This document shows positions 58,724 to 59,792 of a stretch of DNA of 64,000 nt, in pieces. Numbering within the stretch: position 1 is the first letter of the stretch; each line of letters starts with the position of its first letter. Under the pieces are notes generated by a model. That model made no database searches, was not told the DNA's origin, and saw only the letters and a program-made list of their open reading frames with translations. Source of the DNA: a virus; the IMG/VR virus record IMGVR_UViG_3300043496_000205, positions 4,253-68,252 of that record; one strand, written 5' to 3'. A program made the position numbers and the translations under genes.

Positions 58724-58760
58724 AAAAAAGGCTGCTGTCAGGGAGTTCCCAACAGCAGCC
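58724..58760 (-). terminator. Intrinsic terminator downstream of hns
   Basis: GGCTGCTGT/ACAGCAGCC 9-bp stem (inner GGGA/TCCC) followed by 6 U on the minus strand. Confidence 0.85.
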
Positions 58761-58836
58761 CCTCTGCAGAGTATCAACTTTGCCTCTTACCCCAGATCCA
58801 GCAGGACAAGGGTACGGCAGGTCTGTCTACTGCAGA

Positions 58837-59403
58837 TTAGTGAATTTCAAATGGGCTGCGATCAACCATGCCCTTGATCCAGGCTGGCTCCTTGCCTCTG
58901 CCGGACCAGGTTGTCCCCGTGGCCGGGTCGCGGTACTTGGCCTTCGCCTTGGTACCCTTGCGGCGCAGCTTGAGGCCACCCAGGGCTTCGACGAGTTCCT
59001 CGATCGGCACATCGTATTCCTTCACGACATTGACGATCTGCTCGATGACAGAGGCACGCTGAGCCTTCTGCTTTTCCTGGATCCGACGATCCAATTCAGC
59101 CTGCTGAGCCTTAAGCTGTTCGATGCTCAGCTCTGCAAGATCCTGCAGCTTGGCCTGTTCAGCTGGCATTGGGACAGGCCGGGTCGTGCTGCCATGTCCA
59201 AGATTTAGATTTTCCATTTCTTTATCCTCTGTGGAATTATCAGAAATGGGATCTGCTGCTTCCTGTTCCAAGTCATCAGGATTAACTTCTTCCTCCACCC
59301 GTTTTGCACGGGAGCGTCCCTTCTTGAGGAACTGGGGGATGTCGGCGTCGTCCTTGTCGAATGCCAGGCGCTGAGTGGTAGCTTCTGCCACATCTTCACT
59401 CAT
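58837..59403 (-). CDS. hns: H-NS family nucleoid-associated protein with acidic N-terminal extension
   Basis: Coiled-coil LSIEQLKAQQAELDRRIQEK..RASVIEQI...V.EY....EEL plus DNA-binding KYRDPATGTTWSGRGKEPAWI; AGGAG RBS. Confidence 0.92.
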   Translation of the reverse strand: MSEDVAEATTQRLAFDKDDADIPQFLKKGRSRAKRVEEEVNPDDLEQEAADPISDNSTEDKEMENLNLGHGSTTRPVPMPAEQAKLQDLAELSIEQLKAQQAELDRRIQEKQKAQRASVIEQIVNVVKEYDVPIEELVEALGGLKLRRKGTKAKAKYRDPATGTTWSGRGKEPAWIKGMVDRSPFEIH

Positions 59404-59440
59404 AATATTCTCCTGTTTGAATTGCCGTTATGACAATTCC

Positions 59441-59469
59441 AGCTTTGGATTTCCAGCGGGGCTTGTCAA
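59441..59469 (-). promoter_or_regulatory. Sigma70-like promoter for hns (TTGACA-N17-AAAGCT)
   Basis: Perfect -35 TTGACA at 59469-59464; non-canonical -10 resembling that at 59981-59986. Confidence 0.5.
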
Positions 59470-59792
59470 GGATTATTTGTAAATAAGCCCTGCTTAATTG
59501 GGCGATTCATAAACTCCCTGATCAGGAGTGACCGCACAAAATCCTTGACTGCATATCCAGGACTAAGCTGGTCTATCAGCCAGCCTTTCTGGGGTTCCGA
59601 CAGGCTTTCGTAGATGTCTTCCATGAAGGCTCTTCGGGTATCCGCAGGCTGGATCCCCAGGCTCTTCAGGCGGTAGGTGACGGTAGTGTGGTGGAGACTG
59701 AGCCGCTCGGCTATCCCACACAACGAGAGCCCTACATTATTGAGATTCACGATGTCGTTGTCGTTGGCTTTCTTCTGGTAGCTTGAGACCAT
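59466..59792 (-). CDS. HTH-like DNA-binding protein, likely conserved among N4-like phages
   Basis: GLSLCGIAERLSLHHTTVTYRLKSLGI HTH pattern; GAGGAG RBS. Confidence 0.7.
   Translation of the reverse strand: MVSSYQKKANDNDIVNLNNVGLSLCGIAERLSLHHTTVTYRLKSLGIQPADTRRAFMEDIYESLSEPQKGWLIDQLSPGYAVKDFVRSLLIREFMNRPIKQGLFTNNP
59473..59486. promoter_or_regulatory. AT-rich palindrome next to the hns -35 (operator candidate)
   Basis: TTATTT-GT-AAATAA inverted repeat, itself flanked by GGGCTT/AAGCCC. Confidence 0.4.

What the first reader, a model, noticed from the sequence alone, without database searches (positions are those of the whole stretch)
58724..59486. Phage-encoded H-NS in its own transcription unit, plausibly paired with genome-wide AT islands
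Seen: a full-length H-NS (oligomerisation coiled coil plus TWSGRGKEPAW DNA-binding domain) flanked by a TTGACA promoter with an AT-rich palindrome and a strong intrinsic terminator, inserted in front of the helicase. Established: H-NS/Lsr2-type proteins bind and bridge AT/TpA-rich DNA, the N4 core genome has no H-NS, and a prophage silencer (CgpS) is known to bind GC-drop regions of its own element. Inference: this GC-rich phage also carries dozens of short TpA-rich islands (next finding), so H-NS plus islands may form a self-chromatinisation system. It could loop or compact the replicating genome, time transcription, or mask phage DNA from nucleases and host silencers. The AT-hook-like loop reads RGK rather than RGR, which may retune specificity.
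Basis: partly seen in the sequence, partly recalled or inferred. Interest (0 to 1): 0.88.

Follow-up and report, generated by a model that had tools for sequence, protein, structure and literature searches.

The report
Phage H-NS protein with FtsZ-tail arm
A soil N4-like phage carries a real H-NS-type DNA-binding gene, shared with a whole clade of related phages; these phages, unlike relatives without the gene, also have AT-rich islands, and the protein has an unusual flexible arm that copies the tail of the host cell-division protein FtsZ.

Summary
ORF 58837-59403 (-) encodes a 188-aa H-NS-family protein: Pfam PF00816 at 40 bits, and a DNA-binding domain like Burkholderia Bv3F. Homology to E. 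coli H-NS covers residues 57-136 only, so it is not a full-length H-NS. An 80-residue acidic disordered arm replaces dimerisation site 1.

The gene is not unique. It sits between the gp35-like gene and the Dda-like helicase in 13 IMG/VR loci, in Agrobacterium phages OLIVR1-3 (already annotated H-NS), in Ochrobactrum phage ZX86, and in N4-like proviruses of Mesorhizobium.

A CTTGACA-N17-AAAGxT element precedes the gene in all 13 loci examined. The terminator is real, but it is the ancestral pre-helicase terminator, also present in relatives without hns. RGK is invariant across the family, so it is not a phage-specific retuning.

The AT islands are real: 51 observed against 16±2 under synonymous shuffling. 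Fifteen of 15 hns+ loci have islands and 0 of 6 hns- loci do, including two GC-matched ones. These are only one or two independent contrasts, and most relatives show no coding excess.

The arm carries DIPQFLKK, the core of the FtsZ tail; Mesorhizobium FtsZ ends EIPAFLRRQAN. Binding to FtsA is untested.

Verdict: a new variant of a known kind.

The parts
58837..59403 (-). hns-like CDS, 188 aa (P0001)
   Evidence: ORF list. PF00816 at 40.2 bits and phrog_10171. 295 homologues.
58840..58956 (-). DNA-binding domain, aa 150-188, with the loop TWSGRGKEPAW
   Evidence: Profile hit to Bv3F 2L92 at E 1.1e-10, also Ler 2LEV and 2JR1. Foldseek TM 0.70 to 2L92. pLDDT about 90.
58984..59163 (-). Helical oligomerisation region, aa 81-140 (H81-90, long helix H94-130, H134-140). 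Its C-terminal part equals H-NS dimerisation site 2.
   Evidence: AF2 model. hhalign of aa 119-188 to E. coli H-NS 57-136 at 92% probability.
59164..59403 (-). N-terminal arm, aa 1-80: acidic (20 D/E against 10 K/R) and predicted disordered. No counterpart detected in E. coli H-NS.
   Evidence: pLDDT 42-62. Charge count. Linker length varies across homologues.
59356..59376 (-). Motif 1, aa 10-16 TQRLAFD (family pattern T-x-R-L-x-F)
   Evidence: F15 invariant; T10 and R12 at >=90% in alignment A1. Present in most long family members. Variants occur in OLIVR1 and ZX86 and in the Devosia island copy.
59320..59343 (-). Motif 2, aa 21-28 DIPQFLKK: resembles the FtsZ C-terminal tail
   Evidence: Mesorhizobium FtsZ ends ...LEIPAFLRRQAN; 37 of 120 homologues carry [IVL]PxF[LM][RKQ]. 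E. coli tail is DYLDIPAFLRKQAD, with I374 and L378 critical (PMC4117426). It is the only such motif in any frame of the phage.
59441..59470 (-). Promoter-like element CTTGACA-N17-AAAGCT. It overlaps the stop codon of the gp35-like gene.
   Evidence: Sequence. (C)TTGAC plus an A-rich/G box about 17 nt downstream in 13 of 13 hns+ loci. Unique in this genome.
59419..59439 (-). Inverted repeat GAATTG-N9-CAATTC between the promoter-like element and the ribosome-binding site
   Evidence: L046 has a different palindrome at the same place. The RNA fold is not significant (z -0.64).
58722..58762 (-). Intrinsic terminator: 15-bp stem, 5-nt loop, U6
   Evidence: Fold. A hairpin plus U-run is seen at this position in 10 of the 13 hns+ loci folded, with different stem sequences. 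It is also present before the helicase in N4, ort11 and X2_28B, which lack hns.
59466..59792 (-). Upstream gene, 108 aa: homologue of N4 gp35 with a weak HTH signal
   Evidence: 50% identity to N4 gp35 by tblastn. phrog_6377.
57384..58706 (-). Downstream Dda-like helicase (N4 gp37 equivalent)
   Evidence: phrog_325 at E 3.7e-120. Synteny.
59844..59879 (-). Second strong terminator-like hairpin (15 pairs plus T-run) upstream of the gp35-like gene. It bounds the two-gene gp35-hns segment.
59193..59247 (.). AT island inside hns. It contains GAGGA 7 nt before the in-frame ATG of M63. Further islands lie at 58654-58708, 59392-59431 and 59468-59501.
   Evidence: Island list. Internal start context.

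Best explanation
This is an accessory, clade-specific H-NS-family nucleoid-associated protein of a soil N4-like (Schitoviridae) phage.

The C-terminal 70 residues correspond to H-NS residues 57-136: dimerisation site 2, a basic linker, and a minor-groove 'RGK' DNA-binding domain. The protein therefore most likely binds AT/TpA-rich DNA as a dimer or short oligomer.

Its likeliest targets are the phage's own AT-rich islands. One island covers its own conserved promoter-like element, which suggests autoregulation.

The 80-residue N-terminal acidic arm, which E. coli H-NS lacks, carries two conserved peptides. One has the core of the host FtsZ C-terminal tail. DNA-bound copies would therefore display arrays of FtsZ-tail decoys to FtsA or other tail-binding proteins. 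That would couple coating of phage DNA to a block of cell division or to membrane tethering.

Shown: domain homology, synteny, conservation of the cis elements, statistics and co-occurrence of the islands, and motif identity with the host FtsZ tail. Inferred: DNA specificity, oligomeric state, autoregulation and any binding to division proteins.
For: - Domain calls and structure model.
- The gp35-hns-helicase-p167-PolA block is conserved in 13 IMG/VR loci, two Mesorhizobium chromosomal loci, OLIVR1 and ZX86.
- hns takes the slot of the gp36 NTP pyrophosphohydrolase, which is absent here.
- The upstream element is conserved in 13 of 13 loci. In relatives an AT island sits 107-170 nt before the hns start.
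- Islands: 51 against 16±2. TpA observed/expected is 0.95 in islands against 0.60 genome-wide. All-AT hexamers number 809 against 662±26.
- 15 of 15 hns+ loci have islands; 0 of 6 hns- loci do, including two GC-matched ones.
- FtsZ tail of M. yinganensis compared with the hns arm motif. A pattern scan of that 7.7-Mb genome gives only FtsZ, the provirus hns, one other prophage protein and one antisense chance hit.
- The critical I and L of the FtsZ tail (PMC4117426) are conserved as I22 and L26.
Against: - No binding data of any kind.
- The FtsA/arm complex prediction gave no verdict.
- The hns+ phages form only two clades, so the island association may be a lineage trait.
- Most hns+ relatives show no coding-island excess over the null.
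- The FtsZ-like motif is missing from many family members, including OLIVR1 and ZX86. It cannot be the family's core function.
- K replaces the canonical R in the DNA-binding loop.
- Site 1 of H-NS is not detectable, so filament formation is uncertain.
Confidence: 0.4

Rival explanations
1. The AT islands and hns are unrelated. The islands are ordinary AT-rich promoters or leaders plus patches left from, or exchanged with, lower-GC relatives. hns is a lineage-inherited accessory regulator acting at a few sites, for example its own promoter.
For: - The closest relative (L046; 78% of aligned residues identical) has GC3 of 0.482 against 0.725 here. Windowed GC3 profiles correlate only weakly (0.217 against a null of 0.05±0.065).
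- In most hns+ relatives the islands are intergenic and match the synonymous null.
- No specific AT-rich motif is enriched.
- There are only two hns+ clades.
Against: - Rhizobial and GC-matched N4-likes without hns have no islands at all and are more homogeneous than the shuffles (z -5 to -10).
- Coding islands here are about 3-fold over the null.
Confidence: 0.22
2. The protein is directed at the host. It coats AT-rich host DNA (defence or accessory islands, promoters) to shut off host genes. This was proposed for the H-NS of EBPR podovirus EPV1.
For: - Phage H-NS precedent and hypothesis (Skennerton 2011, as summarised in PMC7074111).
- The one natural host genome examined (M. yinganensis, which carries an N4-like provirus) has no H-NS of its own. 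The phage protein would therefore be a new DNA coater in that cell.
- The gene lies in the pre-replicative region.
Against: - It does not explain why the phages carrying the gene are the ones with AT islands.
- It does not explain the acidic arm with its peptide motifs.
- The host of this phage is unknown.
Confidence: 0.18
3. The protein is a counter-silencer. Alphaproteobacteria silence AT-rich foreign DNA with MucR. The phage protein competes with MucR on the phage's AT-rich promoters and islands and keeps them open. It would act like Ler against H-NS rather than as a silencer.
For: - MucR is the xenogeneic silencer of alphaproteobacteria (PMC9410896).
- M. yinganensis has 8 MucR-family matches and no H-NS of its own.
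- The protein lacks a detectable H-NS site 1, as truncated or variant anti-silencers do.
Against: Purely inferential. The coiled-coil region is long enough for oligomerisation. There is no evidence that MucR binds these islands.
Confidence: 0.12

Closest known systems
Agrobacterium phage OLIVR1 gp69 'H-NS histone family protein' (Schitoviridae, Oliverunavirus); also Ochrobactrum phage ZX86 ZXL86_53
   Same: N4-like phage. The gene lies immediately upstream of the helicase-gp38-PolA block and is followed by a hairpin/U-run terminator. It has an acidic N-terminal region, then a coiled coil, then an H-NS DNA-binding domain. Identity is 49% over aa 93-177.
   Different: OLIVR1 and ZX86 keep the gp36 NTP pyrophosphohydrolase. 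Their N-termini read PTQSLFAGN and PTKSLFAGN and lack the FtsZ-like motif. They show no coding AT-island excess. No function has been published: the OLIVR paper does not mention the gene.
E. coli H-NS and Burkholderia Bv3F (PDB 2L92)
   Same: The DNA-binding domain, basic linker and central dimerisation site 2 are homologous.
   Different: No detectable site 1 (H-NS residues 1-56). The loop reads RGK, against QGR in H-NS and RGR in Bv3F. There is an extra 80-aa acidic arm with peptide motifs.
H-NS of EBPR podovirus EPV1 (gp43)
   Same: A lytic-type podovirus carrying an H-NS homologue. tblastn shows 30% identity over aa 87-176. Function untested.
   Different: A different phage family and genomic context. 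EPV1 was described as similar to H-NS over its full length.
Silencers carried by mobile elements: Sfh (R27 plasmid), CgpS (CGP3 prophage, Lsr2-type)
   Same: A mobile element encodes a nucleoid protein that binds AT-rich DNA, including its own DNA (PMC7074111; PMC5137423 listed).
   Different: Those act in stably maintained elements. Here the carrier is an N4-like phage with no integrase found, although relatives are integrated in Mesorhizobium.
FtsZ C-terminal conserved tail and DNA-bound division regulators (SlmA)
   Same: The peptide core D/E-I-P-x-F-L-K/R-K/R sits on a long flexible linker attached to an oligomerising body. SlmA shows that DNA-bound proteins can act through the FtsZ tail (PMC4117426).
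   Different: Here the DNA-bound protein would carry the tail rather than bind it. The motif is N-terminal rather than C-terminal. Binding is unproven.

Membership tests
H-NS family (Pfam PF00816 Histone_HNS) | C-terminal DNA-binding domain with the conserved T-W-x-G-x-G-x-x-P-x-W loop | tested here: met
   PF00816 at 40.2 bits against a cut-off of 25.6. Profile hit to Bv3F at E 1.1e-10. Model TM 0.70 to 2L92. The loop reads TWSGRGKEPAW.
H-NS family (Pfam PF00816 Histone_HNS) | Arg at the third position of the Q/R-G-R minor-groove motif | tested here: not met
   K171 replaces R. RGK occurs in 119 of 120 family members and in solved 2JR1. It is a subfamily trait and the charge is conserved.
Full-length H-NS-type DNA bridger or silencer | Central dimerisation site 2 (H-NS residues 57-83) | tested here: met
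   hhalign aligns aa 119-188 with E. coli H-NS 57-136 (92%, E 5.8e-7).
Full-length H-NS-type DNA bridger or silencer | N-terminal dimerisation site 1 (H-NS residues 1-46), which allows head-to-head and tail-to-tail filaments | tested here: inconclusive
   No Pfam, PDB-profile or hhalign match to H-NS 1-56. Predicted helices H81-90 and H94-118 could form another interface.
Full-length H-NS-type DNA bridger or silencer | Preferential binding and bridging of AT-rich DNA, with gene silencing | not testable with these tools
   Indirect only: AT islands co-occur with the gene.
FtsZ C-terminal tail (conserved peptide) mimic | Core D/E-I/V-P-x-F-L-R/K-R/K with the critical I and L | tested here: met
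   DIPQFLKK at aa 21-28. Some homologues read EIPAFLRR or EIPAFLRK; Mesorhizobium FtsZ reads EIPAFLRR. I374 and L378 are critical.
FtsZ C-terminal tail (conserved peptide) mimic | Peptide at the end of a long disordered tether on an oligomerising body | tested here: met
   The arm has pLDDT below 55 and a linker of variable length. The orientation is reversed: N-terminal.
FtsZ C-terminal tail (conserved peptide) mimic | Binds FtsA, MinC or other tail-binding proteins | not testable with these tools
   The only complex job (Mesorhizobium FtsA plus aa 1-50) returned 'no answer'.
Schitoviridae (N4-like phages) | Giant virion RNA polymerase gene and the N4-type replication module | tested here: met
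   4173-aa ORF at 34839-47360. DNA polymerase 59% identical to that of N4. gp35, helicase, gp38 and PolA are in N4 order.

The most novel reading that the evidence does not exclude
The protein is a DNA-anchored decoy of the FtsZ tail. H-NS-type dimers or oligomers on AT-rich phage DNA would display many FtsZ-tail peptides on acidic tethers. This is the same polymer-linker-peptide design as an FtsZ filament. They would capture FtsA or other tail binders with high avidity. The result would be a block of host division, or tethering of replicating phage DNA to the membrane: a nucleoid-occlusion-like mechanism run in reverse by a phage. The genome's AT islands would serve as the loading sites.
Probability: 0.25. 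Interest if true: 0.85.

Novelty: new variant of a known kind. Interest (0 to 1): 0.62.

Why it matters
Phage-encoded H-NS homologues have been known since 2011, but none has a tested function.

This work defines a coherent subfamily carried on mobile elements: N4-like phages and proviruses, plus one integrase-adjacent island. The one host genome examined that carries such a provirus (Mesorhizobium yinganensis) uses MucR and has no H-NS of its own.

The subfamily has cultivable entry points: OLIVR1 on Agrobacterium, ZX86 on Ochrobactrum, and Mesorhizobium strains carrying proviruses.

The results also turn the 'self-chromatinisation' idea into a comparative pattern that can be tested. Islands are present in all hns+ loci sampled and absent from all hns- loci sampled.

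If the FtsZ-tail arm is functional, it would be a new way for a virus to link its DNA to the host division machinery.

Tried and rejected
- Megablast of the locus against isolated phages: no match.
- Complex prediction of Mesorhizobium FtsA with aa 1-50: score 0.00, 'no answer'. This counts neither for nor against binding.
- Foldseek against PDB found only the DNA-binding domain.
- Consensus sigma-70 scan: 7 promoter-like sites against 6.0 expected.
- TTGACA is not enriched. CTTGACAA occurs twice against 1.95 expected.
- RNA fold of the leader with the palindrome is not significant (z -0.64).
- Rfam: nothing above threshold.
- k-mer search for an island motif found none, only general AT/TpA hexamer excess.
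- No integrase in the phage.
- No RNA-seq run holds the locus; the DNA is found in soil metagenomes only.
- The P0121 family was checked for a conserved FtsZ-like tail. Only 2 of 121 members have it, so this is weak support.
- The idea that RGK is a phage-specific retuning was rejected.
- The idea that the Mesorhizobium homologues are cellular genes was rejected. They lie in N4-like proviruses.
- An SSB-tail (DDDIPF) reading of the arm was considered. It is less likely because FLKK follows the motif and the motif is internal.

Full report
**1. What is there**

The window is bases 4253-68252 of a 77,620-bp IMG/VR virus record. The record has direct terminal repeats and is rated 100% complete.

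It is an N4-like phage:
- It has a 4173-aa ORF of virion-RNA-polymerase size.
- Its DNA polymerase is 59% identical to that of N4 and 62% identical to that of Sinorhizobium phage ort11.
- Its DNA recurs in soil metagenomes from several studies. No RNA run holds it.

ORF 58837-59403 (-) encodes 188 aa (P0001).
- It passes Pfam's H-NS C-terminal domain threshold: PF00816, 40.2 bits against 25.6, aa 155-178. It also matches phrog_10171 over aa 87-187.
- A family profile hits the solved Bv3F domain (2L92) at E 1.1e-10, then Ler and 2JR1.
- The AF2 model superposes on 2L92 with TM 0.70.

**2. Architecture**

The model has four parts:
- a confident C-terminal domain;
- a basic linker;
- helices 81-90, 94-130 and 134-140;
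- a low-confidence N-terminal 80 residues.

hhalign against E. coli H-NS aligns aa 119-188 with H-NS 57-136 (92%). That span is dimerisation site 2, the linker and the DNA-binding domain. Nothing matches H-NS site 1. 'Full-length H-NS' is therefore only partly right.

The arm is acidic, with 20 D/E against 10 K/R. Its length varies among homologues, but it holds two conserved peptides:
- T-x-R-L-x-F, at aa 10-15.
- D-I-P-Q-F-L-K-K, at aa 21-28.

The second peptide is the core of the FtsZ C-terminal tail:
- In E. coli the tail is DYLDIPAFLRKQAD. [quoted passage not shown]
- FtsZ of Mesorhizobium yinganensis ends ...LEIPAFLRRQAN.
- Some homologues read EIPAFLRR or EIPAFLRK.

A degenerate pattern for this peptide hits the 7.7-Mb M. 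yinganensis genome four times:
- FtsZ;
- the provirus hns;
- an antisense chance hit;
- a 135-aa prophage protein ending ...DIPAFLKNGQ.

In this phage the motif occurs once in all six frames. I found this motif independently.

The single complex prediction allowed (FtsA plus aa 1-50) returned no verdict.

**3. Distribution and synteny**

There are 295 homologues, many on 70-78-kb contigs.

The block gp35-like / hns / Dda-like helicase / 167-aa protein / PolA is conserved in:
- 13 IMG/VR loci;
- two Mesorhizobium chromosomal loci;
- OLIVR1 and ZX86.

OLIVR1-3 already annotate the gene as 'H-NS histone family protein'. Their paper does not discuss it, and neither does a pan-genome study of N4-like viruses.

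N4, ort11, RHph_X2_28B and RHEph22 have the gp36 NTP pyrophosphohydrolase directly before the helicase and no H-NS domain. In this phage gp36 is absent and hns fills its slot. OLIVR1 and ZX86 have both genes.

The 'cellular' Mesorhizobium homologues lie in N4-like proviruses. A 3768-aa vRNAP-like frame lies 23 kb away. The shorter Devosia copy (165 aa) sits next to an integrase.

M. yinganensis has no other H-NS domain and has 8 MucR-family matches. MucR is the alphaproteobacterial xenogeneic silencer (PMC9410896).

RGK is present in 119 of 120 family members.

**4. Cis elements**

Downstream of hns:
- A 15-bp stem with U6 follows the gene.
- A hairpin plus U-run is seen at the same position in 10 of the 13 relatives folded, with different stem sequences.
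- The same kind of terminator precedes the helicase in N4, ort11 and X2_28B. It is therefore the ancestral unit boundary.

Upstream of hns:
- CTTGACA overlaps the stop codon of the gp35-like gene and has no canonical -10 box.
- TTGACA is not enriched in the window.
- A (C)TTGAC box followed about 17 nt later by AAAG(G/C)T is present before hns in all 13 loci.
- This bipartite element is unique in this genome.
- A second strong terminator lies before the gp35-like gene.

hns thus ends a two-gene segment bounded by terminators and has its own conserved promoter-like element.

**5. AT islands**

The islands are statistically real in this genome:
- With 50-bp windows at <=30% GC, the genome has 51 islands, 37 of them coding.
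- Shuffling synonymous codons within genes gives 16.0±2.0.
- TpA is depleted genome-wide (observed/expected 0.60) but not in the islands (0.95).
- All-AT hexamers are in excess: 809 against 662±26.
- No specific motif stands out.

In the roughly 20-kb replication region (threshold GC minus 0.25):
- All 15 hns+ loci have 1-9 islands.
- All six hns- loci have none. These are L061, ort11, X2_28B, RHEph22, and the GC-matched Axy11 and Zuri.
- In relatives one island usually lies 107-170 nt before the hns start.

Caveats:
- Only this phage and L056 exceed the synonymous null for island counts. L046 does so only on local GC variance (z +5.6).
- On a DNA-polymerase tree the hns+ phages form just two well-supported clades, so there are one or two independent contrasts.
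- The closest relative differs sharply in GC3 (0.482 against 0.725). Its GC3 profile correlates only weakly with this one. Islands could therefore partly be ancestral or recombinational patches.

**6. Reading**

Best supported: this is a phage-adapted H-NS-family DNA-binding protein that binds AT-rich DNA. Its own promoter and the phage's islands are the most plausible targets. Its N-terminal arm presents host-protein-binding peptides.

The rivals are:
- no link between hns and the islands;
- host-directed silencing;
- anti-MucR counter-silencing.

None is excluded. Everything beyond homology, synteny, conservation and composition statistics is inference.

**7. Novelty**

Phage H-NS homologues are known (PMC7074111), and this gene is already annotated in related phages. 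What I did not find described is:
- the subfamily's architecture: site-2-type H-NS plus an acidic arm with an FtsZ-tail-like peptide;
- its restriction to mobile elements in every context examined, in alphaproteobacteria;
- the co-occurrence with AT islands.

Full-text searches for H-NS with Schitoviridae, for FtsZ-tail mimics in phages, and for the peptide string itself found nothing relevant.

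Noticed in passing
L008 (M. yinganensis contig, 442-455 kb), L018 (CP034450.1, 1.85 Mb), L066/L067: Complete-looking N4-like elements lie inside Mesorhizobium chromosomes: replication module, DUF2201, and a 3768-aa vRNAP-like frame 23 kb from hns. These look like integrated N4-like proviruses in a host genus not mentioned in the paper that reported N4-like proviruses (PMC10654107). 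The window's own phage has no tyrosine integrase.
   Followed up: partly
L065:1126-1530 (+), protein P0121: A 135-aa prophage protein sits just upstream of an HK97-type capsid gene in M. yinganensis and ends with ...PADIPAFLKNGQ, an FtsZ-tail-like peptide at its C-terminus. Only 2 of 121 family members carry this tail.
   Followed up: yes
whole genome; compared with L046 (IMGVR_UViG_3300009597_000014): The closest relative (about 78% of aligned residues identical over 14 proteins) has GC3 of 0.482 against 0.725 here. This is a very large shift in synonymous composition between close relatives.
   Followed up: partly
window 58706-58725 and the same position in L046, L049, L050, L051, L008: Just after the hns terminator, relatives share a T-rich word (TTTCTTTGCCTGGTTCC-like) in front of the helicase start. 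It may be a phage-polymerase promoter for the replication genes.
   Followed up: no
window 59215-59217 (M63 codon) and upstream GAGGA: An in-frame ATG for M63 is preceded by GAGGA at a 7-nt spacing, inside an AT island. An M-E/D-N motif is conserved at this position in the nearest homologues. A short isoform lacking the N-terminal arm is possible.
   Followed up: partly
L009:5818-6315 and 7045-8121 (Devosia enhydra): The shorter Devosia H-NS homologue (165 aa, with a TVPRLIF motif) lies beside a phage-type integrase and a transposase fragment, at the edge of the fabD-fabG genes. It too appears to be carried on an island.
   Followed up: partly
whole genome: The palindromes CGATCG (66 against 30.6) and TGGATCCA (10 against 1.1) are strongly over-represented relative to synonymous shuffles. 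This is the opposite of restriction-site avoidance.
   Followed up: no
window 59844-59879 (-): A very strong terminator-like hairpin (15 pairs, 8 G-C) with a T-run lies upstream of the gp35-like gene.
   Followed up: no
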